DNA from: an uncultured virus (IMG/VR IMGVR_UViG_3300029448_000020)
Taxonomy: Duplodnaviria; Heunggongvirae; Uroviricota; Caudoviricetes; Crassvirales
Virus record (IMG/VR): IMGVR_UViG_3300029448_000020
Span: 47,198 to 67,197 of that record
DNA: 20,000 nucleotides
Strand: one strand, 5' to 3'
In this document: positions 11,861-19,606 of the stretch, piece by piece
How the letters are laid out: each line of letters begins with the position of its first letter
How positions within the stretch are numbered: position 1 is the first letter of the stretch
Program-made: the position numbers and the translations under genes
The notes under the pieces: model-generated
Database searches by the model: none
What the model was told of the DNA's origin: nothing
Seen by the model: only the letters and a program-made list of their open reading frames with translations

Positions 11861-12094
11861 ATGACTAATAATGTAATTCAAAGCAAGAGATTTGTGGTAA
11901 GACAATCACTTGTTGGCAAAGATGCCACTATAAATGTAACATTCAAAAATGGCAAAACTGCGACTTATAATCACGACAAAGTGTTTGCTATCATGAAAGA
12001 TAAGTTACAAGAAATGCCATGCTTTATCAAGTACAAGTCGTACACGGCGAGTAATAACCTACCAATGATGGTAAGAGATAAAGATATCGCCTAA
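11861..12094 (+). CDS. Hypothetical early protein, paralog B
   Basis: 77 aa, similar to 11161..11379. Confidence 0.8.
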   Translation: MTNNVIQSKRFVVRQSLVGKDATINVTFKNGKTATYNHDKVFAIMKDKLQEMPCFIKYKSYTASNNLPMMVRDKDIA

Positions 12095-12285
12095 TGCGTA
12101 GTAAGAAGTTTAGCCACTTCGAAGTATTTAAAGCAGTAATAACAACTCTTTACATCACAAGTGGCATTCTTATGTTTAGTACACTGATAAGTAATGCGTC
12201 ACAAATGTACAAACAAGTAGAAGTAATAGATTCTTATTCAGGAGCAACAATGTATAGTTGCGAGAACTGTGACGAAATAGATTAA
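12094..12285 (+). CDS. Small membrane protein with C-terminal CxxC
   Basis: One hydrophobic helix (AVITTLYITSGILMFSTLI) and a terminal SCENCDEID; TAATG coupling. Confidence 0.65.
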   Translation: MRSKKFSHFEVFKAVITTLYITSGILMFSTLISNASQMYKQVEVIDSYSGATMYSCENCDEID

Positions 12286-12295
12286 GTTATACAAA

Positions 12296-12452
12296 ACCAC
12301 TAATGAAGTGCTGAGTAACTAGTGGTAACTTGAGACGTAGTTGACTACATTTAGCGTCTTATAAATAATGCGAATGAGTAATACAAGGTAGAAAGGCGGC
12401 TGTAGTCCTCTCCGAGTGATGACAATCAAGTGGTTCGAGTCCACAACTACCA
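12296..12452 (+). ncRNA. Putative structured RNA ending in a degenerate tRNA-like element
   Basis: Stems ACCACTA/TAGTGGT (12296-12326) and AGACG/CGTCT (12333-12359); T-arm GTGG-TTCGAGT-CCAC (12430-12444); GGTAG/CTACC acceptor-like pairing (12387-12451). Confidence 0.45.
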
Positions 12453-12454
12453 CT

Positions 12455-12715
12455 ATGAATATAGATAATATAATGAGAAATACGTTCGCTGTCGTGACTA
12501 ATCGATGCGGAGTAGAAGATATTCTTGAATTGTATACAGGTGAAGATGCTATGTTTTATGGCAATCCACTCGATATGCAAGTAGAAGATATTGATGAAGT
12601 AATAAACTACTTCGAAAATACCGAAGAATACGAGAATTGCCAACAGTTACTTGACGTTAAAAATGACAAAGTAGCAGAAGTTTTAACTAAAAAATTGATA
12701 AGAGATGAACTATAA
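12455..12715 (+). CDS. Hypothetical acidic protein with UVR-like EEYENC motif
   Basis: Start moved to ATG 12455, after the tRNA-like element; contains INYFENTEEYENCQQL. Confidence 0.65.
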   Translation: MNIDNIMRNTFAVVTNRCGVEDILELYTGEDAMFYGNPLDMQVEDIDEVINYFENTEEYENCQQLLDVKNDKVAEVLTKKLIRDEL

Positions 12716-12803
12716 TATAAAAGATGAAGAATATAATCAAGAACAATTTGATTATTACAACAGTTACTTAGAAGATCAAGTGGATATTAATATAAATATG
12801 TAA
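12705..12803 (+). CDS. 32-aa acidic peptide
   Basis: MNYNIKDEEYNQEQFDYYNSYLEDQVDININM; fills the gap between two ORFs exactly. Confidence 0.45.
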   Translation: MNYNIKDEEYNQEQFDYYNSYLEDQVDININM

Positions 12804-12805
12804 GT

Positions 12806-13081
12806 ATGAATAAGAAATTATTATTTATAATAGGTTTTGCGGCAAGTTTAAACGCCGCTTGCCAAACCACCTCAACTAATAAAAAAGCTGATAGTTACCA
12901 TAAATGTATAGTAATGAAGTGTGGTAGTGAGATAGATAAGTGTAAAACAATCGCTGGAATTTTAACACCATTTTGTGATAAGCATATAGAAATGATAAGA
13001 AACAACAAAGTTTTAGATGTGTGTAGTGGATGTTACAAGCGATATGTAGATAAATGTAAAGAATTAACATATGAGAAATAA
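12806..13081 (+). CDS. Cys-rich exported protein or lipoprotein
   Basis: Signal peptide MNKKLLFIIGFAASLNAAC followed by multiple Cys residues. Confidence 0.6.
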   Translation: MNKKLLFIIGFAASLNAACQTTSTNKKADSYHKCIVMKCGSEIDKCKTIAGILTPFCDKHIEMIRNNKVLDVCSGCYKRYVDKCKELTYEK

Positions 13082-13358
13082 ATTAATAATAGCTAGTGTA
13101 GCTCTTGGTGGACTAGTAAATGCACAGTGTAATTACAAGTGTGGTTACAATCAAGACGAGAATGGTAATACTGTTCACCTTGAGCAATGTAATGAGTATA
13201 AAAAAATTAAAAAAGACAAATCTCTTGATTTAATTTATAATAGAAAAATACCTTTATACACAAAACCTAATGGACCTATAACTCCGTTAGTTAAATCAAA
13301 GTGGATGGAAAAACTAGTAATGACTTTGGAATATGGTGACACCAACATGGTCGAGTAG
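13071..13358 (+). CDS. Exported protein with signal peptide
   Basis: MRNKLIIASVALGGLVNA|QC: V-x-A cleavage site with Gln at +1, typical of Bacteroidota. Confidence 0.6.
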   Translation: MRNKLIIASVALGGLVNAQCNYKCGYNQDENGNTVHLEQCNEYKKIKKDKSLDLIYNRKIPLYTKPNGPITPLVKSKWMEKLVMTLEYGDTNMVE

Positions 13359-13422
13359 CTTAACTGGATAAAGCAACAGCCTTCTAAGCTGTAGAGTGTG
13401 AGTTCGACTCTCACCTCGATCA
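13349..13422 (+). tRNA. tRNA-Arg (anticodon UCU), CCA not encoded
   Basis: Acceptor GGTCGAG/CTCGATC; D-arm GCTT-AACTGGATA-AAGC; anticodon arm ACAGC-CTTCTAA-GCTGT; T-arm GTGAG-TTCGACT-CTCAC. Confidence 0.95.
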
Positions 13423-13452
13423 CAAATTAAATACGACAACTCGTAGATAATA
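13422..13452 (+). promoter_or_regulatory. Class I bipartite repeat, copy 5
   Basis: ACAAATTAAATACGA-caactcgt-AGATAATA; begins at the tRNA discriminator base. Confidence 0.8.
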
Positions 13453-13459
13453 TAAATAT

Positions 13460-13672
13460 ATGAAATGTAAATGTAAAAAAAATATAATACCAAAAGGACG
13501 TTTGCGACTCGGTTTTAGAGTATGCGTTGAGTGTTCAACTGTCGAAAGATACGGTTGTGCTCCAGTCATTAACCATAAGACAGGCAACACTATTCAAATT
13601 ATGTCGCAAGAAGACGCTAAACGCATAGCTAAACTGACTCGTAGACGTGGATATGGTACAATGCTTAAATAA
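13460..13672 (+). CDS. DksA/TraR-like C4 zinc-finger protein
   Basis: CKCKKNIIPKGRLRLGFRVCVECS resembles the C..C...IP..RL......C..C pattern of DksA/TraR fingers, with CxC as the first pair. Confidence 0.55.
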   Translation: MKCKCKKNIIPKGRLRLGFRVCVECSTVERYGCAPVINHKTGNTIQIMSQEDAKRIAKLTRRRGYGTMLK

Positions 13673-13679
13673 TAAATAT

Positions 13680-13883
13680 ATGAATAGAATTAAAATACTT
13701 AAAAACGGGAACTTAGTAATGACTAAGTCAGATGTAGAAATAACTTATAGACCATACAAGGTTGGTGATTTACCAAAAGACTTTGGCTGTATAGAATATA
13801 AAAGACCAAGTGGCAAGCTAAGAGATGGTATTGACAACTGGTTCAAGTACAAAGGTTTAACTTACGTAGCTATTACAAAATAA
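13680..13883 (+). CDS. Hypothetical protein
   Basis: Likely start MNRIKILK at 13680; the stop codon lies inside repeat copy 6. Confidence 0.7.
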   Translation: MNRIKILKNGNLVMTKSDVEITYRPYKVGDLPKDFGCIEYKRPSGKLRDGIDNWFKYKGLTYVAITK

Positions 13884-13905
13884 ATACGACAAGTAACAGA
13901 TAATA
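13875..13905 (+). promoter_or_regulatory. Class I bipartite repeat, copy 6
   Basis: ACAAAATAAATACGA-caagtaac-AGATAATA. Confidence 0.8.
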
Positions 13906-13910
13906 ATAAT

Positions 13911-14030
13911 ATGAAAATACAACGAAAAGACATACAAACAAGAGATCCTTACTGGAAAGTAGCGTCATTCAAGCGTATTCATAAGAGTAAAAAGACTTAT
14001 ACTCGTAAAAATAAGCATAAAAATAAATAA
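13911..14030 (+). CDS. 39-aa basic ArfA-like peptide
   Basis: MKIQRKDIQTRDPYWKVASFKRIHKSKKTYTRKNKHKNK; not in the ORF track; ATG lies 5 nt after repeat copy 6. Confidence 0.55.
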   Translation: MKIQRKDIQTRDPYWKVASFKRIHKSKKTYTRKNKHKNK

Positions 14031-14033
14031 TAT

Positions 14034-14618
14034 ATGACAAAAGTAAAAACAATGGAAGAAGCATACCGAGTATTTGAACTACTTGGTATTAAAGATGTCA
14101 CGAAAAAGTGGCAAAAGAAACAAGGTACTGAAGTATTTGAGTTGCCATTTAAAACTATGTGCTACAACGGTCAAGCAGAAACTAATAGATTCTCGATCTA
14201 CAAAAGTGGTTATATACGTAAAATGGTAGTTCATCCAACTAGTAATGCAAGTTATAGTTGCTATCAACTAAATAAAACTCGCAAATCTGATGAGTATTTC
14301 AAAGATTATGACTACGATGGCAAGTGGACAGGTAAATATCGTAAAAGCAACAGAACAGAGCGAATTATGATAGATACTCACAGAGATCGAGTAGTATATT
14401 TATGTAATTACATACTAAAAAATTACTATAATAGTAATAAAATGAACTTAGTTGGCGAATATACTATGAAAAGAGTAGCAGAAGTACATGGCGAATGGTG
14501 GAGAAACGAAAGAAAACACGACGAGTGGCCATTTGAAGATGTAAAAAGAAACGATGTAGACTACGAACCTAAAGAAGTTCAAATAATAATTGACGGACAC
14601 CGTTATAAAGTAATATAA
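14034..14618 (+). CDS. Hypothetical protein
   Basis: 194-aa ORF with no motif I recognise. Confidence 0.8.
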   Translation: MTKVKTMEEAYRVFELLGIKDVTKKWQKKQGTEVFELPFKTMCYNGQAETNRFSIYKSGYIRKMVVHPTSNASYSCYQLNKTRKSDEYFKDYDYDGKWTGKYRKSNRTERIMIDTHRDRVVYLCNYILKNYYNSNKMNLVGEYTMKRVAEVHGEWWRNERKHDEWPFEDVKRNDVDYEPKEVQIIIDGHRYKVI

Positions 14619-14619
14619 A

Positions 14620-14871
14620 ATGATAGAAGAATTAAAAGATTTAGAACAAGAAGCGATGGATGAGTTAACGCCTGAAGACTATATGGCAATCACCTCTAAT
14701 GTAATGGACGACTATGATCGACCAATATACCAAAGTGGCTACATAGATGGCTTACAAACAGCTATAAGAATGCTTAGTAGTGATGATACTACCATGAGTT
14801 ATACAATGGAGATTGATGAGATGTTTGGTGAGGACTATGCTAAAGTAGATGAAGACGAAGACACAAAATAA
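14620..14871 (+). CDS. Highly acidic hypothetical protein
   Basis: 83 aa, Asp/Glu-rich; the stop codon lies inside repeat copy 7. Confidence 0.7.
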   Translation: MIEELKDLEQEAMDELTPEDYMAITSNVMDDYDRPIYQSGYIDGLQTAIRMLSSDDTTMSYTMEIDEMFGEDYAKVDEDEDTK

Positions 14872-14893
14872 ATACGATTGCTTCAAGATAATA
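14863..14893 (+). promoter_or_regulatory. Class I bipartite repeat, copy 7
   Basis: ACAAAATAAATACGA-ttgcttca-AGATAATA. Confidence 0.8.
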
Positions 14894-14914
14894 ATAATAT
14901 AAAAAATAAATAAT

Positions 14915-15115
14915 ATGCCAAATATGAGTTACTGTAGGTTTGAAAACACTACAATAGATATAGATGATTGCTTAGCTGCGATACAAGATTCTCACGAAGA
15001 ATGTGCTGATTTAAGTAGACGTGAGGTGCAAGCTTTACAAAGATTACTAGAACAAGCAGAAGAAATAGTAGATTTATCGCATGATATTGAACAAATAATA
15101 GAAAAATATAACTAA
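14915..15115 (+). CDS. Conserved phage hypothetical protein (MSYCRFENT type)
   Basis: N-terminal NMSYCRFENT motif that I recall from small proteins of many phages. Confidence 0.75.
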   Translation: MPNMSYCRFENTTIDIDDCLAAIQDSHEECADLSRREVQALQRLLEQAEEIVDLSHDIEQIIEKYN

Positions 15116-15129
15116 AAATAACTCAAAAA

Positions 15130-15534
15130 TGCGGGGCGAGGGACGTGTAGAACTTAAAGATGGGGTTAATCCGTTTGGACACCTCGGTTCATCTAACCTT
15201 CTTGCCGCAGTGACCTGACTATATCTATGTATAAAGATGAGGTTGGTCACACGTGAACTAGGTGGTTCAATGTAGGATAAAGCATTCAAGGGAGTGGGAG
15301 CGAAATCTCCAGTTAACTATAAACTACTCGGTCTTGATGGTACCACACCTACAGTTCACAACAGCTTGAAATGGACAAAACAGGGTGATACGCACCGCGT
15401 AATTTGCCTGACGAGGTGGGAGGTTCGATTCCTCCCCAAGCTGCAAGATATGTGCCTAAATGTGAAATTCATAGCAAGGTCGCAAGTACCTGCAGAAGGC
15501 TTGTATGGATAGAGTTAAAGCCTCTATACATATC
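15130..15534 (+). ncRNA. Putative ~405-nt multi-domain structured RNA or ncRNA cluster, including a tRNA-like domain
   Basis: Five back-to-back closed stems: TGCGG/CCGCA, GTGACC/GGTCAC, GTGAACT/AGTTCAC, CAGCTTG/CAAGCTG (with T-arm GGAGG-TTCGATT-CCTCC) and GATATGT/ACATATC. GC content is higher than in the flanks. Confidence 0.65.
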
Positions 15535-15565
15535 ACAAACTAAATACGAATAAAGTAAGATAATA
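15535..15565 (+). promoter_or_regulatory. Class I bipartite repeat, copy 8
   Basis: ACAAACTAAATACGA-ataaagta-AGATAATA. Confidence 0.8.
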
Positions 15566-15570
15566 AATAC

Positions 15571-15804
15571 ATGAAAACAATATACGATAGACTCACACCA
15601 GATATTCTGGCGAGTATAAACAATGACGAACAAAGATATCCTTTTACAACTAAAGCTCTTAAAATAAAGCTTAAGTCTAGTGATGACTGGTCACAGTTAT
15701 CTGTAGGTGATGTTCAATCAATAATAACACATTCTCATATAAGATTAATTGACGTAGATCAAGCAGATTTAATGTGGGGTGATAAATTTTTAATAAGTAA
15801 GTAA
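15571..15804 (+). CDS. Hypothetical protein
   Basis: 77-aa ORF starting 5 nt after repeat copy 8. Confidence 0.7.
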   Translation: MKTIYDRLTPDILASINNDEQRYPFTTKALKIKLKSSDDWSQLSVGDVQSIITHSHIRLIDVDQADLMWGDKFLISK

Positions 15805-15872
15805 TGATAATACCAAAAATACTAATATGCTATATAATTATTTTTATAATAGCTGTAAAATATAAAAAATGA
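15804..15872 (+). CDS. 22-aa putative single-TM peptide
   Basis: MIIPKILICYIIIFIIAVKYKK; TAATG overlap upstream and ATGA overlap downstream. Confidence 0.5.
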   Translation: MIIPKILICYIIIFIIAVKYKK

Positions 15873-16081
15873 GTAAAAAATTAAAAGATGGAGTCTACAA
15901 GGCTCAAAATGGAAGTGATAAAATTATGTACTTTGTACACGATGAGTTAATTGTTATGCAGTGGAAACACGGAACATTCAAAACTAATACTAACTTTATG
16001 TTAGGTGCTAAATGGGTTGAATCATTACCAATGTCAAAAGGTGAATTTATAAAAGGTTATAATCAATTAAAATCGTGGTAA
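15869..16081 (+). CDS. Hypothetical protein
   Basis: 70-aa ORF within the operon. Confidence 0.7.
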   Translation: MSKKLKDGVYKAQNGSDKIMYFVHDELIVMQWKHGTFKTNTNFMLGAKWVESLPMSKGEFIKGYNQLKSW

Positions 16082-16082
16082 A

Positions 16083-16499
16083 ATGGCAACAAGAGCAAAA
16101 ATACATATAGCTAGGCGTGAAGAAGGAGTATCGTTTAGTGACATACCGGAGAAAGTTATGGTAAGTATTTATAATCATTGGGATGGTTACCCTGAAGGAT
16201 TAGGTGTGAAATTAGCCTCTTATCTTGATGATTTTGTAATAACAAATGGCTTAAGTAGAGACAATGAGTATGTCTTCAATGGATTAGGCTGCATGGCGGC
16301 TTCAATTATAGAACATTTAAAAGATGGTCCAGGAAACGTGTATATAGAAGATCCAGAACGTCCTCACACTTGGATAGATTATGATTATTACGTATGGGGT
16401 GATGACCATAAAGATATATGGATTAGTATATTTGATGGATCTGAGTGTATATTTGTAGGAAAACCAAAAGCTTTATTAAGTAAATACTACACAAACTAA
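16083..16499 (+). CDS. Conserved phage protein (MATR...HWDGYP type)
   Basis: MATRAKI...SIYNHWDGYPEGLG...DYDYYV; the stop codon lies inside repeat copy 9. Confidence 0.75.
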   Translation: MATRAKIHIARREEGVSFSDIPEKVMVSIYNHWDGYPEGLGVKLASYLDDFVITNGLSRDNEYVFNGLGCMAASIIEHLKDGPGNVYIEDPERPHTWIDYDYYVWGDDHKDIWISIFDGSECIFVGKPKALLSKYYTN

Positions 16500-16521
16500 A
16501 TACGACGACCTATGGATAATA
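16491..16521 (+). promoter_or_regulatory. Class I bipartite repeat, copy 9
   Basis: ACAAACTAAATACGA-cgacctat-GGATAATA. Confidence 0.8.
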
Positions 16522-16798
16522 TAAAAGATGAAAATTTAAAACGATTAGGCAGATTTATAGCTGAAGGATTAATGGATTTAGCAAAATACACAGACAAAGA
16601 AAACTGGATGGAAGAGAATATGAGAGACCATATGATCGGTGAGTTAGCACGCTGTGTCACATTGCAAAATTTATATCTNNNNNNNNNNAGTTTGAGAAAT
16701 GTGCTATAATGAAAATAAGAATAATGGAATTAACAGATAAATTAGATTTAGAAATTGATTCCGATTTAACAAATTTAGATAAAGATGATGAGGAATAA
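16512..16798 (+). CDS. Hypothetical protein interrupted by an assembly gap (start uncertain)
   Basis: After the N run (16679-16688) another frame reads FEKCAIMKIRIMELTDKLDLEIDSDLTNLDKDDEE-stop (16798), which is probably the true C-terminus. Confidence 0.55.
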
Positions 16799-17630
16799 AC
16801 CAATGTTAGCTTACCCAGTAAGCGCAAAACCAATAGACTATAATAAACCAGTATTTATACAACCAAAGCTTGACGGCGTGCGTTGTCTAATACAGTGTGA
16901 TAATGGCAAGATAACTGCGTATTCACGTAATAATAAAGAGTGGAAAAATATCGACCATATACTTTTTAATCTCAAGCCATTCTTTCACTGGAATCCAAAT
17001 GTTGTGCTTGACGGTGAATTGTATAATCATGACTTTAAAGATGATTTTGAACAAATCATATCTATGGTCAGAAAAACAAAACCAACTGACGAGGCACGTG
17101 CTAAATCAGCTGAAAACGTACAATTTCATTGTTATGATATTGTAAACAAAAAGATGAAGTTTAGCACGCGTAGCAAGTGGATTGAAGGTAATTTACAATC
17201 AAATCATTGTATACGCCTAGTACCAACAAGTAAAGTCACTGCTGAACCAGCTGCTAAAATGACACATAAAATTAATTTAACAAATGGTTACGAAGGTTCT
17301 ATTGTAAGACTAGACACACCTTACCAATGTAAAAGGTCTCATAGTCTTAGAAAATTCAAAGATTTCAGCGATGCTGAAGCTAACATTGTAGGTTACGAAG
17401 AAGGTAAAGGTAAAAGAGTCGGCACGCTGGGTAAGTTTATAATGCAAGATGATGATGGTAACCAGTTCGGTTGTCCACCAGGTAAAGGTCATAATTATAA
17501 AGATCTTGCAAAAATGCTTATCGAGATCCATAAATATATGGGTCAGCGTGCTACCTTTACATATTTCGAACGAACAAAAGCAGGTAGTTACAGACATCCA
17601 CTATATAAATGTATAAGAAATTATGAATAA
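16785..17630 (+). CDS. ATP-dependent DNA ligase (minimal NTase + OB domains)
   Basis: Motif I QPKLDGVR, III LDGELY, IIIa FHCYD, IV EGSIVR, V LRKFK; N-terminal KPMLA; C-terminal YRHP. Confidence 0.95.
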   Translation: MMRNKPMLAYPVSAKPIDYNKPVFIQPKLDGVRCLIQCDNGKITAYSRNNKEWKNIDHILFNLKPFFHWNPNVVLDGELYNHDFKDDFEQIISMVRKTKPTDEARAKSAENVQFHCYDIVNKKMKFSTRSKWIEGNLQSNHCIRLVPTSKVTAEPAAKMTHKINLTNGYEGSIVRLDTPYQCKRSHSLRKFKDFSDAEANIVGYEEGKGKRVGTLGKFIMQDDDGNQFGCPPGKGHNYKDLAKMLIEIHKYMGQRATFTYFERTKAGSYRHPLYKCIRNYE

Positions 17631-17745
17631 AAGATTAATATTAAAAATCCTAAAGCAAAACGAAATTAATAGATATAATAAAAATAATTCTAAAAGAATT
17701 ATTATAGGAACGTTAAAACCAATATGTGACAAAAGCCTCAAATAA
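17623..17745 (+). CDS. 40-aa basic peptide
   Basis: MNKRLILKILKQNEINRYNKNNSKRIIIGTLKPICDKSLK; overlaps the ligase stop. Confidence 0.4.
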   Translation: MNKRLILKILKQNEINRYNKNNSKRIIIGTLKPICDKSLK

Positions 17746-17771
17746 TATATTAATAAGGGGCTAATGTCACA
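17725..17771. repeat. Interrupted palindrome TGTGACA...GCTAATGTCACA, copy 2
   Basis: TGTGACAAAAGC-N23-GCTAATGTCACA, ending 11 nt before the ATG of the HTH gene. Confidence 0.7.
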
Positions 17772-17782
17772 AATAGAACTAT

Positions 17783-18403
17783 ATGGACAGAAGATTTAAG
17801 TATTTATGGAATAAACATGTTGTTTATAGAAGAGATCCTATAACTGATATACCAGACGAAGAAACAGATACATATATGTTTTATAAGAATGGTACATACC
17901 AGTGTTATGACTTGTTTAGAAGTAAAGCAAAAATCACAACATGGAAATCATTTTATTGGCACATGATGGTGCTGTGGCATTTAAACCCAGAGTGGGAAGA
18001 TGCTGATGCAATGGAAATAGCTACATACTTAGCATGGAAACCTAATGGTTTTACTACGTTTACTATGAATAAATGGAATATAGCTAGATTAGTATATGAA
18101 GTTTCTGTGCTAGATCTTGAAGAGCCTCCACGTAATAAACTTAGAAAGATTATATTTAAACCACAATGTGGATTAGATAAATCTGAAAAACTAAGCATTG
18201 TTGGTAAGTTAATAGGTAGGATTAATGGTGTAAATAAAGAAGATATTTATAGTAGCATGTTATTAATGAATGACAGTGACGAAAAGATAACTATAGCTAA
18301 ACTAGCTAAGAGCTTAAAGTGTACACCAAGAACTATACATAGGCGAATGTGTAGAGAGTTAAAACAAGTAAAAGAAGAATTAAATGAAGAGATTAATATA
18401 TGA
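17783..18403 (+). CDS. DNA-binding protein with C-terminal HTH
   Basis: KITIAKLAKSLKCTPRTIHRRM is a clear helix-turn-helix; the N-terminal domain is not recognised. Confidence 0.65.
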   Translation: MDRRFKYLWNKHVVYRRDPITDIPDEETDTYMFYKNGTYQCYDLFRSKAKITTWKSFYWHMMVLWHLNPEWEDADAMEIATYLAWKPNGFTTFTMNKWNIARLVYEVSVLDLEEPPRNKLRKIIFKPQCGLDKSEKLSIVGKLIGRINGVNKEDIYSSMLLMNDSDEKITIAKLAKSLKCTPRTIHRRMCRELKQVKEELNEEINI

Positions 18404-18491: not shown

Positions 18492-18851
18492 ATGACCAGA
18501 ATAAATGTAGGAATACCACCAGCTGAATTAACAGACAAGCACTTACTAGCTGAGCATAGAGAAATAAAACGTATACCAAATTGCATAGCTAAAGGTAAGT
18601 ACAATATGGAAGGTATACCAGACACATTTAAATTAGGTACAGGACATGTTAAGTTCTTTTACGATAAGTTATATTATCTTTTAATGAGATATATGAAGCT
18701 ATACGTTGAGTGTAAAAATAGAGGATTTAATGTACAATGTTACGCTGAAGCATGGAAAGGTTTACCTAAAGAATTAATGAATAATTATCAACCAACATAT
18801 ATGGATAGAAAAATAGTAAAACAAAGAATTAATGAAAAATTAAACAAATGA
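18492..18851 (+). CDS. denV: Pyrimidine dimer DNA glycosylase / endonuclease V
   Basis: MTRIN...L.DKHLLAEHREIKRI...FKLGTGHVKFFYDKL...RGF matches T4 endonuclease V, including the catalytic Thr2 and Glu. Confidence 0.93.
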   Translation: MTRINVGIPPAELTDKHLLAEHREIKRIPNCIAKGKYNMEGIPDTFKLGTGHVKFFYDKLYYLLMRYMKLYVECKNRGFNVQCYAEAWKGLPKELMNNYQPTYMDRKIVKQRINEKLNK

Positions 18852-19606
18852 AAAAATATCACGTACAAAATTATGTAAGATGGAAACACGACATGGCAGA
18901 TTCTTTAAAAAGAATACCAGATAGACCATATCACGAATTAAGTAGAGACGAATTAATAACTAAGTTTTTACCATTAGTAGAAAGTTTAGCTAGAAAGTTT
19001 TCAACATCACAACAAGCTAGCGGTGTTATGAGTATAATGGATATTATACAAGAAGGTAATTTAGGTTTGTGTGCTGGTGTTGATAGAATAGAGTGGGACA
19101 CAATACTAGAAGCTGAAGATCAAAGCAAGAGGTTGAAATCATTTCTATCTAAAAGAATAAAAGGAGCAATACGTAGAGGCATTGACACGAACAGAGGTAG
19201 CATGCGTATACCAGAGCATAAGCTAAATGAAATACGAAAAGACTTTGGTGAAGATCGTAAAATGGTTGAATTGTTTTTTAATTCAGTGTTTACAAGTCTA
19301 GATGCTGGAACACAAGAGCAACAAAACGCAGCGTATAATATACCAGATAATATAAAAGGTTATAATAAAGAGTTATTAGCAGCATATATAAAATCATTAA
19401 TGCTCCAATATTTAAACCCAAAAGAGTTTCAAGTTCTTAGATTATCTTATGGACTTGATTGTGATAAGATGTCTGCTAAAGAAATAGCTGAAGTTTTAGG
19501 TATAAAAGGCACTAGCTCTTACGTACGTATTTCACAGTTAAAAAAGCAAGCAATTGATAAACTTATTGATAACGTTGAGCACTCGCAAGTGGTTGATTAC
19601 CTGTAA
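18848..19606 (+). CDS. RNA polymerase sigma-70 family factor
   Basis: Region 2: LPLVESLARKF...DIIQEGNLGL...RIKGAIRR...MRIPEH. Region 4: VLRLSYGL...MSAKEIAEVLG...RISQLKKQAIDKL. Confidence 0.9.
   Translation: MKKYHVQNYVRWKHDMADSLKRIPDRPYHELSRDELITKFLPLVESLARKFSTSQQASGVMSIMDIIQEGNLGLCAGVDRIEWDTILEAEDQSKRLKSFLSKRIKGAIRRGIDTNRGSMRIPEHKLNEIRKDFGEDRKMVELFFNSVFTSLDAGTQEQQNAAYNIPDNIKGYNKELLAAYIKSLMLQYLNPKEFQVLRLSYGLDCDKMSAKEIAEVLGIKGTSSYVRISQLKKQAIDKLIDNVEHSQVVDYL

What the first reader, a model, noticed from the sequence alone, without database searches (positions are those of the whole stretch)
15130..15534. ~405-nt non-coding stretch tiled end to end by five closed RNA stem domains
Seen: domains 15130-15209 (TGCGG/CCGCA, inner AGATG/CATCT), 15210-15250 (GTGACC/GGTCAC), 15253-15359 (GTGAACT/AGTTCAC, inner AGGTG/CACCT and GGAG/CTCC), 15362-15443 (CAGCTTG/CAAGCTG) and 15447-15534 (GATATGT/ACATATC, inner AGGT/ACCT and AGGCTT/AAGCCT). 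They are separated by only 0-3 nt, are GC-richer than their surroundings, and contain no convincing ORF. Inference: an undescribed large phage ncRNA, or a polycistronic array of small RNAs processed like a tRNA operon. Large phage ncRNAs near tRNAs are known (GOLLD, ROOL), but I cannot match this one. A decoy or anti-defence role is speculative.
Basis: partly seen in the sequence, partly recalled or inferred. Interest (0 to 1): 0.8.

Follow-up and report, generated by a model that had tools for sequence, protein, structure and literature searches.

The report
Modular phage RNA array, tRNA-like end
This stretch of an uncultured marine phage is a real non-coding array of separately folding RNA modules, one of which is a tRNA look-alike with no anticodon arm, and it belongs to an undescribed RNA family that is common in ocean sequence data and whose job is still untested.

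Summary
All five closing stems are at the stated coordinates. Tiling 398 of 405 nt by closed domains was reached by 0 of 300 dinucleotide shuffles. The fold has z -2.54.

Homologues show non-coding structured RNA on the + strand. Domains 1 to 4 recur in related phage and marine metagenome contigs. Invariant blocks are separated by length-variable arms.

- **Domain 4 (15362-15443)** is an anticodon-less tRNA-like domain. It has a 7-bp acceptor stem, a UGG elbow partner, a 4-bp mini-hairpin with a GACG loop, and a 6-bp T stem with a TTCGATT loop. Covariation is strong: 95% of cells paired, 8 of 13 pairs with double changes, 0 of 500 shuffles.
- **Domain 3** has an invariant core and a covarying inner helix.
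- **Domain 1** has a covarying apical helix.
- **Domain 5** has no diverged homologue.

Modules are present or absent independently among 27 distinct units. No Rfam family matches. The 15294-15512 ORF is not conserved. Metatranscriptome contigs hold domains 1 to 3.

The array lies in the 3' part of a phage early transcription unit. I infer that host tRNA-processing enzymes cut it at the tRNA-like module. Function is untested.

The parts
14870..14892 (+). Clade-specific promoter-like motif (AAATACGA..AGATAAT) that starts the transcription unit holding the 66-aa gene and the RNA array
   Evidence: The motif has 7 matches on the + strand of the window against 0.04 expected. None lies between 14892 and 15542.
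14915..15115 (+). 66-aa ORF (MPNMSYCRFENT..., phrog_8760, unknown function) directly upstream, probably co-transcribed with the array
   Evidence: Relatives of this protein lie within 3 kb of a tRNA-like module in 10 of the 80 loci fetched with it.
15130..15209 (+). Module A (domain 1): basal stem GCRG/CYGC, a 2x3 internal loop, GARGG/CCTTC, a conserved internal loop (..GTGTA / ATCTAA) and a variable apical helix
   Evidence: There are 13 distinct copies. Pair 5/129 is GC in 9 and AU in 4. The apical helix has 4 or more consecutive pairs from its base, with different sequences, in 9 of 13 copies.
15210..15250 (+). Module B (domain 2): 41-nt hairpin, nearly invariant in sequence wherever present
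   Evidence: z -4.28. It is identical in L101 and L102. Its 19-mer, with up to 2 changes, lies upstream of domain 3 in 9 of 27 units. Three G-U pairs in the fold favour the + strand.
15253..15359 (+). Domain 3: closing stem 15253-15259/15353-15359, second stem AGGTG(G)/(C)CACCT 15260-15265/15344-15350, invariant junction 15267-15285 (..AATGTAGGATAAAGC..), inner helix TCAAG/CTTGA 15286-15290/15333-15337, 3' junction TGGTA 15338-15342
   Evidence: There are 27 distinct units. The outer stems never vary apart from U-G/U-A at one pair. The inner helix has 6 of 7 pairs with changes on both sides.
15362..15444 (+). tRNA-like domain (domain 4): acceptor 15362-15368/15437-15443, AAATGG 15369-15374 (UGG elbow partner), variable arm about 15375-15405, mini-hairpin GCCT-GACG-AGGT 15406-15417, 6-bp T stem 15418-15423/15431-15436, T loop TTCGATT 15424-15430, C15444 after the stem
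   Evidence: covariation; model R1, 76 bits, the only hit in the genome.
15447..15534 (+). Domain 5: predicted closed fold with a 7-bp closing stem and a 6-bp hairpin with loop TTAAAGC. It is specific to this lineage.
   Evidence: z -1.80. It occurs only in two loci identical to the window. The relative L082 has an unrelated sequence here.
15542..15564 (+). Next copy of the promoter-like motif, ahead of the 77-aa gene at 15571-15804. It marks the end of the unit.
   Evidence: The same motif follows the phage's own tRNA-Arg directly, at 13429.

Best explanation
Window 15130-15534 is the non-coding 3' part of a phage early transcription unit. It is an array of independently folding RNA cassettes: module A, module B, domain 3, a tRNA-like domain, and a lineage-specific fifth fold.

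Shown: the cassettes are conserved, are structured on the + strand, are optional and recombined among relatives, and are present in metatranscriptome assemblies. Domain 3 and the tRNA-like domain always occurred together in the units I recovered, but I only scored a unit as complete if it held both.

The tRNA-like domain keeps the parts of a tRNA that processing enzymes read. These are the acceptor/T-arm stack, the T loop, and a GG that can form the elbow. It has no anticodon arm and no D stem.

Inferred mechanism: host RNase P cuts at the 5' side of the tRNA-like domain, and RNase Z or exonucleases plus the CCA-adding enzyme act at its 3' side. This punctuates the transcript. It would release a stable domain-3-containing RNA (with modules A and B where present) and a free tRNA-shaped RNA that cannot decode. 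The released RNAs would then act by binding host or phage factors. Their nearly invariant loops and junctions point to sequence-specific partners.
For: Conservation and covariation:
- Homologues have invariant blocks separated by length-variable arms.
- In the tRNA-like domain, across 28 distinct sequences, 95.1% of cells pair, 8 of 13 pairs have double changes over 70 cells, 0 of 500 shuffles reach this, and slid controls pair at 34-51%.
- RNAalifold adds a 4-bp mini-hairpin whose two outer pairs covary: UA 18, AU 6, GU 4 and AU 21, CG 6, GU 1.
- The same mini-hairpin with CC/GG inner pairs occurs in L007 and L010, which do not match my search pattern.
- The inner helix of domain 3 covaries. 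Module A covaries.

Strand: G-U pairs occur throughout. They would be A-C mismatches on the other strand.

Copy number: the tRNA-like domain has one strong hit in the own genome and one in each of 5 of 5 related records.

Modularity: upstream of domain 3, module A is present in 8, module B in 9, module C in 10 and module D in 5 of 27 units. The combinations differ but the order is fixed.

Place in the transcription unit:
- No promoter motif lies between 14892 and 15542, and no intrinsic terminator was found.
- The phage's real tRNA-Arg sits in the same kind of place, directly before the next promoter motif, and encodes no CCA.
- In 13 of 27 units the promoter motif follows within 140 nt of the tRNA-like domain.

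RNA libraries: contigs of 4 metatranscriptome runs from 3 studies hold 15134-15384 at 88-100% likeness. One 301-nt contig has word depth 855. The tool warns that this does not prove transcription.
Against: - No cleavage site, RNA end or partner was observed. The laid runs are contigs and cannot show ends.
- RNase P needs far less than what is conserved here, so punctuation alone does not explain the invariant GACG loop, the invariant domain 3 junction or the invariant module B.
- The acceptor/T stack is 13 bp (7+6) if the first pair forms, not the 12 bp of tRNAs. The first pair is unpaired in 13 of 28 sequences.
- The outer stems of domain 3 never vary, so they are supported by conservation only.
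- CTGACGAG and the T loop were required by my search pattern, so their invariance within that set is partly by construction.
Confidence: 0.5

Rival explanations
1. The tRNA-like domain is the active part. It is a decoy that titrates a host factor which reads the tRNA top half, such as SmpB/tmRNA rescue, EF-Tu, a modification enzyme or a tRNA-targeting defence nuclease. The other modules are scaffolds or further decoys.
For: The domain has no anticodon arm but keeps the UGG, T loop and acceptor stem, like the tRNA-like end of tmRNA. A second clade of relatives (L005, L022, L007, L010, L042, L016, L009) carries, 80-200 nt downstream of the same kind of domain, a second tRNA-like element with a tmRNA-like 5' end and a G3:U70 pair. 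A message-less tmRNA in phage DS6A and its inhibition of tmRNA are in print (PMC4131195 and PMC11915505, passages read). The invariant loops suggest specific partners.
Against: The window's domain has G3-C70, not G3:U70. It has a 6-bp T stem and an extra mini-hairpin. The Rfam tmRNA model matches only 17 nt of the T arm, at 9.9 bits against a gathering score of 47. No partner was identified. The genome has no SmpB, Ro60, synthetase or CCA-enzyme gene among my 82 ORF calls.
Confidence: 0.25
2. The region is decayed tRNA genes: pseudogenes left from a former tRNA cluster, without a function of their own.
For: It lies about 1.7 kb downstream of the phage's only tRNA gene. ARAGORN at a lowered threshold calls a poor tRNA-Asn at 15363-15444.
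Against: Purifying selection with compensatory changes is seen in 28 distinct sequences. The non-tRNA architecture is the same in all of them: no D stem, a 6-bp T stem and the GACG mini-hairpin. There is one strong copy per genome in 6 of 6 records. RF00005 finds nothing here at E up to 1. Domains 1 to 3 have no tRNA features.
Confidence: 0.04
3. It is a cis-acting element of the neighbouring genes: a 3' UTR stabiliser of the upstream mRNA and/or a leader that controls translation of the downstream gene, not a trans-acting RNA.
For: In relatives domain 3 starts directly after the stop codon of the upstream gene (L142, L150). In 14 of 27 units no promoter motif was found within 140 nt after the tRNA-like domain, and in several of them a downstream ATG follows within about 10-25 nt.
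Against: The flanking genes differ among relatives while the RNA core is invariant. Modules are swapped independently of the neighbours. No Rfam cis-regulatory family matches.
Confidence: 0.15
4. It is a DNA-level element (origin, packaging or recombination site) or a small protein gene.
For: Dense inverted repeats are present. A 72-aa ORF lies at 15294-15512.
Against: Many G-U pairs work on one strand only. The element has a T-loop sequence. The ORF frame is broken in most homologues. No protein family matches.
Confidence: 0.03

Closest known systems
Message-less ('TLD only') tmRNA of mycobacteriophage DS6A and similar mini-tmRNAs (PMC4131195, PMC11915505; passages read)
   Same: A phage-encoded RNA with an acceptor stem, a T arm and a GG-containing D-loop substitute, but no anticodon arm and no tag frame. 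Relatives of this phage carry an alanine-type element of that kind next to the domain described here.
   Different: The window's domain has no G3:U70, a 6-bp rather than 5-bp T stem, and a GACG mini-hairpin before the T arm. It is preceded by a large conserved domain. The Rfam tmRNA model matches only the T arm, at 9.9 bits.
Small stable RNAs of phage tRNA gene clusters: T4 species 1 and 2 RNAs (rnaC, rnaD) and T5 tRNA-like RNA1/RNA2
   Same: Non-decoding structured RNAs co-transcribed with or next to phage tRNAs. They are thought to be cut out by tRNA-processing enzymes, and their function is unknown.
   Different: No sequence relation was tested or found. Here the modules are many, optional and shuffled, and the phage is an uncultured marine one with a single tRNA gene.
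MALAT1/mascRNA type 3'-end formation (recalled; no call)
   Same: A tRNA-like structure at the end of a longer structured RNA that would recruit RNase P to make the mature end.
   Different: That system is eukaryotic and there is no homology. Processing is not shown here.
   Same: Large structured non-coding RNAs in phage genomes, often near tRNA genes.
   Different: Neither Rfam model matches at gathering score or at E up to 10. This locus is a chain of optional cassettes, not one fixed large fold.
Class II tRNAs and tRNA-Sec (recalled)
   Same: An extra hairpin between the central arm and the T arm, and a 13-bp acceptor/T stack if the first pair forms.
   Different: There is no anticodon arm and no D stem. 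The split is 7/6, not 8/5. C follows the stem. RF00005 finds nothing here.

Membership tests
tRNA (Rfam RF00005) | Covariance-model score at or above gathering (29 bits), or an ARAGORN call at default settings | tested here: not met
   The only tRNA in the window is Arg(TCT) at 13349-13423. RF00005 at E up to 1 over the whole genome finds two places, neither here. ARAGORN calls the domain only at a lowered threshold, with a poor cloverleaf.
tRNA (Rfam RF00005) | Anticodon arm with a 7-nt loop, a D stem, and a 7-bp acceptor with a 5-bp T stem | tested here: not met
   The central arm varies from 18 to more than 90 nt with no common loop. The T stem is 6 bp with covariation at the sixth pair: GC 10, UG 8, UA 4, AU 3.
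tRNA-like top half (acceptor/T-arm mimic) | Acceptor stem stacked on a T arm with a TTCRANY-type loop and a GG able to form the elbow | tested here: met
   The loop is TTCGATT and UGG lies 4 nt after the acceptor strand. 13 pairs are 95.1% paired. The T loop was part of the search pattern, but L019 and L009, found by nhmmer without it, share it.
tmRNA (RF00023 and permuted forms) | Model score; G3:U70 alanine mark; tag reading frame and pseudoknots between the two halves of the tRNA-like domain | tested here: not met
   The match is 9.9 bits over 17 nt against 47 needed. ARAGORN tmRNA mode finds none. Pair 3-70 is G-C or A-U. The interior is only 39 nt in the window.
GOLLD / ROOL / other Rfam large ncRNAs | Match to the family covariance model | tested here: not met
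   No match in the window at gathering score, none in 14900-15800 at E up to 10, and none in 20 related loci, 19,448 bases, at E up to 1.
Bacterial Y RNA (YrlA) with Ro60 | Match to the Rfam Y-RNA-like model and a Ro60 (TROVE) gene nearby | tested here: not met
   No Rfam match. No TROVE domain among 82 ORFs of the 67-kb genome (my own ORF calls, ATG starts, 50 aa or more).
RNase P / RNase Z substrate (works-like claim) | Cleavage at the 5' and 3' ends of the tRNA-like domain | not testable with these tools
   Only contigs of RNA runs could be laid, and they cannot show ends.

The most novel reading that the evidence does not exclude
The locus is an RNA counterpart of a phage accessory-gene island. 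It is a chain of exchangeable structured-RNA cassettes: at least modules A, B, C, D, domain 3 and the tRNA-like domain, in fixed order but each optional. Each cassette would bind a different host or phage factor. Host tRNA-processing enzymes would cut them apart at a tRNA-like module of a previously unseen build: a 6-bp T stem, a GACG mini-arm and no anticodon arm. Domain 3's invariant junction includes a 3' strand of the form U-N-N-N-A in 24 of 27 units, read by eye. That junction could form T-loop-type motifs that dock on a tRNA elbow, its own or a host tRNA's, which would make it an RNA that captures tRNA.
Probability: 0.2. Interest if true: 0.85.

Novelty: new variant of a known kind. Interest (0 to 1): 0.6.

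Why it matters
Anticodon-less tRNA-like RNAs in phages have been known for decades without a function. It has a compact, well-defined architecture, natural presence/absence variants of each module, and hints of high RNA abundance in the sea. That makes questions testable. Is the tRNA-like module a processing signal or a decoy? What do the invariant loops bind? Do phages trade RNA cassettes as they trade protein accessory genes? It also adds an unusual tRNA-like build (6-bp T stem, GACG mini-arm) to the known forms of tRNA mimicry.

Tried and rejected
**Searches that found nothing**
- Cultured phages: blastn of 15100-15560, megablast of 12000-18000, blastn of the clade-2 RNA region and tblastn of the zinc-ribbon protein against 50,697 phage records all gave no match. 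GroEL gives only matches under 60% identity. Host and taxon stay open.
- Earlier notes of this scan held nothing for this genome or this sequence.
I used handles instead.

**Ideas tested and dropped**
- Module B as a mimic of a host sequence such as a CRISPR repeat. Its 19-mer has one exact match in 185,579 species genomes, inside a coding region of a Bacillales MAG, which I read as chance.
- Hammerhead ribozyme, because CTGACGAG resembles CUGANGA. No GAAA or stem III is in register, there is no Rfam hit, and the motif folds as a covarying mini-hairpin instead.
- Standard or permuted tmRNA spanning the region. There is no matching 5' and 3' acceptor pair, and ARAGORN -m finds none.
- Intron-containing tRNA-Leu called by ARAGORN -i -ps. 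It has a mismatched acceptor and is not conserved.
- A pseudoknot GTAGG/CCTAC as an alternative to the nested AGGTG/CACCT. All partners are invariant, so the two cannot be told apart.
- K-turn or loop-E reading of module A's internal loop. There was no fit by eye.
- The 66-aa protein as an obligate partner. Only 10 of the 80 loci fetched with it have the domain within 3 kb.

**No conclusion drawn**
- The RNA-run contigs did not cover the flanking ORFs (14900-15115, 15571-15900) or the tRNA-like domain beyond 15384. Flanks of relatives may simply be too diverged, and contigs drop parts.

Full report
**Setting**

The window is the last 20 kb of a 67,197-bp IMG/VR virus record that CheckV rates complete. 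The phage is AT-rich. It encodes GroEL/GroES, a terminase, a DNA ligase, a sigma factor and two giant ORFs. It has one tRNA gene, Arg(TCT), at 13349-13423. No cultured phage among 50,697 records resembles the region or its neighbours at the DNA level.

The finding lies among small + strand genes. Each of these is preceded by a repeated motif, AAATACGA..AGATAAT, which has 7 matches against 0.04 expected.

One copy sits at 14870 before the 66-aa gene (14915-15115). The next is at 15542. No intrinsic terminator was found. The 405-nt stretch is therefore most simply the 3' part of that transcription unit.

**The observation**

- A chain of closed domains covers 398 of 405 nt. None of 300 dinucleotide shuffles reached this.
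- The whole stretch folds at z -2.54, with 0 of 100 shuffles as good. The minus strand gives z -1.99.
- By energy alone only domains 2 (z -4.28) and 4 (z -2.71) stand out.
- G+C is 0.42-0.47 against about 0.3 around.
- No Rfam family matches at gathering score or at E up to 10.

**Homologues**

The nearest relative is L082, which is the same contig as L101. It was reached through the downstream 77-aa protein. It aligns with a blocky pattern. Positions 15209-15267 are identical, as are the T-arm block and several other stretches. Between them the sequence and length change freely, including a whole inserted hairpin.

A pattern taken from domain 4 found 35 viral loci. 80 of these were fetched. 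46 of the 80 carry family marks and the other 34 are chance matches. Together they give 31 complete domain 3 plus domain 4 units, 27 of them distinct.

**Domain 4 is a tRNA-like domain**

Of the 36 pattern matches (35 loci plus the window), I aligned 28 distinct sequences. I dropped:
- one cut at a contig end (L114);
- one ordinary tRNA (L085);
- three of a sub-type without the UGG (L095, L106, L112);
- three duplicates (L092, L116, L117).

The common plan has these parts:
- a 7-bp acceptor stem;
- RNNUGG directly after it;
- an arm of very variable length and sequence;
- a 12-nt mini-hairpin (NNCU-GACG-AGNN);
- a 6-bp T stem with loop TTCGATT;
- the acceptor 3' strand with no spacer;
- then C and A/T-rich sequence, with no encoded CCA.

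For the 13 acceptor and T-stem pairs, 95.1% of cells pair. 8 pairs show changes on both sides, over 70 cells. 0 of 500 shuffles reach this, and slid controls pair at 34-51%.

RNAalifold independently finds the mini-hairpin, and its two outer pairs covary. L007 and L010 do not match my pattern, yet they have the same hairpin with different inner pairs.

The first acceptor pair is unpaired in 13 of 28 sequences. The stack is therefore either 7+6 or 6+6 with a discriminator base.

There is no D stem and no anticodon arm. RF00005 and ARAGORN at default settings do not call it. The tmRNA model matches 17 nt only. My model R1 finds exactly one strong copy in this genome (76 bits) and one in each of five related records.

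**Domains 1 to 3 and 5**

- **Domain 3.** The core is invariant: GTGAACT AGGTGGT .. AATGTAGGATAAAG .. ACCACACCTAC R GTTCAC. Hairpins are inserted at one fixed point in 15 of 27 units. An inner helix covaries at 6 of its 7 pairs. The outer stems never vary, so only conservation supports them. A pseudoknot alternative (GTAGG with CCTAC) cannot be excluded.
- **Domain 1 (module A).** It has 13 distinct copies. One basal pair is compensatory (GC 9, AU 4). The internal loops are conserved. The apical helix differs in sequence but stays paired.
- **Domain 2 (module B).** It is nearly invariant wherever present. This argues for a sequence-specific partner rather than mere structure. Its 19-mer has no meaningful match in 185,579 bacterial and archaeal species genomes.
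- **Domain 5.** It occurs only in two loci identical to the window. Relatives have other folds, a second tRNA-like element, or nothing at that place.

**Modularity**

Upstream of domain 3 the 27 units carry module A in 8, module B in 9, a module C in 10 and a module D in 5. The combinations differ but the order stays the same. Five units have none of these. Loose ends of the metatranscriptome contigs show further combinations.

**It is RNA on the + strand and not coding**

G-U pairs are frequent: 13 cells, U-G in 22 of 27 units at one domain 3 pair, and many in the inner helix. They would be A-C mismatches on the other strand.

The frame of the 15294-15512 ORF is open for fewer than 50 codons around the T block in 17 of 26 other homologues. 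No PHROG or Pfam family matches any ORF here.

Contigs of four metatranscriptome runs from three studies hold 15134-15384. One has word depth 855. The tool warns that this does not prove transcription, and contigs show no ends.

**A second clade**

Relatives reached through the 66-aa protein are L005, L022, L007, L010, L042, L016 and L009. They have a zinc-ribbon gene (window homologue 13460-13672), then a long non-coding stretch, then the 66-aa gene. The non-coding stretch holds the same type of tRNA-like domain followed by a second element with a tmRNA-like 5' end and a G3:U70 pair. The window has no such alanine-type element.

**Mechanism**

Shown: a conserved, structured, modular non-coding array with a tRNA top-half mimic, placed at the end of a transcription unit. 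The phage's real tRNA occupies the same kind of place, directly before a promoter motif and without encoded CCA.

Inferred: host RNase P and 3' tRNA-processing enzymes cut at the tRNA-like module and release stable RNAs, which act through their invariant loops. I give this 0.5.

The main rival, at 0.25, is that the tRNA-like domain is itself a decoy for a factor that reads tRNA top halves. This has a precedent in message-less tmRNA (PMC4131195, PMC11915505). A purely cis-acting role gets 0.15. Pseudogenes, DNA elements or coding together get under 0.1.

**Novelty and literature**

Three full-text searches found no description of this family:
- one search found 0 papers;
- one search found 271 papers, of which 15 were listed;
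- one search found 16 papers, of which 15 were listed.

I read passages of PMC4131195, PMC11915505 and PMC10690425. I did not open the supplements of PMC10690425, which lists 10,006 candidate viral RNAs and may include this motif.

The comparisons with T4 rnaC/rnaD, T5 RNA1/2, mascRNA, YrlA, tRNA-Sec and T-loop docking are recalled, not tested. Anticodon-less tRNA-like phage RNAs are a known kind. This one differs in build and in its cassette organisation.

Noticed in passing
window 11114, 11538, 11809, 13429, 13882, 14870, 15542 (+ strand): A repeated bipartite motif, AAATACGA-N7-AGATAAT, lies just upstream of small + strand genes and directly after the tRNA-Arg. It has 7 matches against 0.04 expected. 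It also occurs many times in related loci. It is probably the clade's early promoter, and the genome encodes its own sigma factor (18848-19606).
   Followed up: partly
L009:373-452; L022:2751-2832; L005:2708-2815; L007:2901-2981; L010:2702-2805: Relatives carry an element like a message-less tmRNA. It starts GGGGGTG or GGGCGTG, has a tmRNA-like D-loop substitute, a T arm and a G3:U70 pair, and ends ..CCA CTAA. It lies just upstream of the 66-aa gene. ARAGORN did not call it in L009.
   Followed up: partly
window 13460-13672 (+): A 70-aa zinc-ribbon-like protein (CxC..CxxC..HKTGNTIQI..) sits directly after the tRNA-Arg. In the second clade its homologue is the gene that precedes the non-coding RNA stretch. 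No Pfam family matches, and there is no match in cultured phages.
   Followed up: partly
L097, L107, L127, L167, L173, L195, L009 (module D): A 22-nt loop motif, GGTGAGGGATCGTTATGAACTC, recurs in different contexts. It stands as its own hairpin upstream of domain 3. In L107 it sits inside the variable arm of the tRNA-like domain. A related form, GGCGAGGGACGTGTAGAACT, occurs in the window's domain 1.
   Followed up: no
L101, L097, L127, L146, L152, L167, L168, L173, L175 (module C): Another conserved cassette, GTCTCCAGAGATAATAACCTTTACGTGGTTGGAGAT..GAAACTAATAATTATCAA, is present in 10 of 27 units but absent from the window.
   Followed up: no
genome 15544-24435 and 31323-37691 (- strand), outside the window: Two giant ORFs of 2,963 and 2,122 aa have no Pfam match.
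   Followed up: no
window about 16680-16700, and genome 6255-6264: There are 20 N in the genome. One run starts at genome 6255. The XXX in the translation of ORF 16512-16709 suggests another inside the window.
   Followed up: no
L183: about 20-105 nt downstream of its tRNA-like domain; also L147-L149, L157, L162, L167: A second sub-type of tRNA-like element (..ACGAACAGGAGTAGCTT..GGTGGGTTCGATTCCCAC..) either follows or replaces the usual one in some relatives.
   Followed up: no
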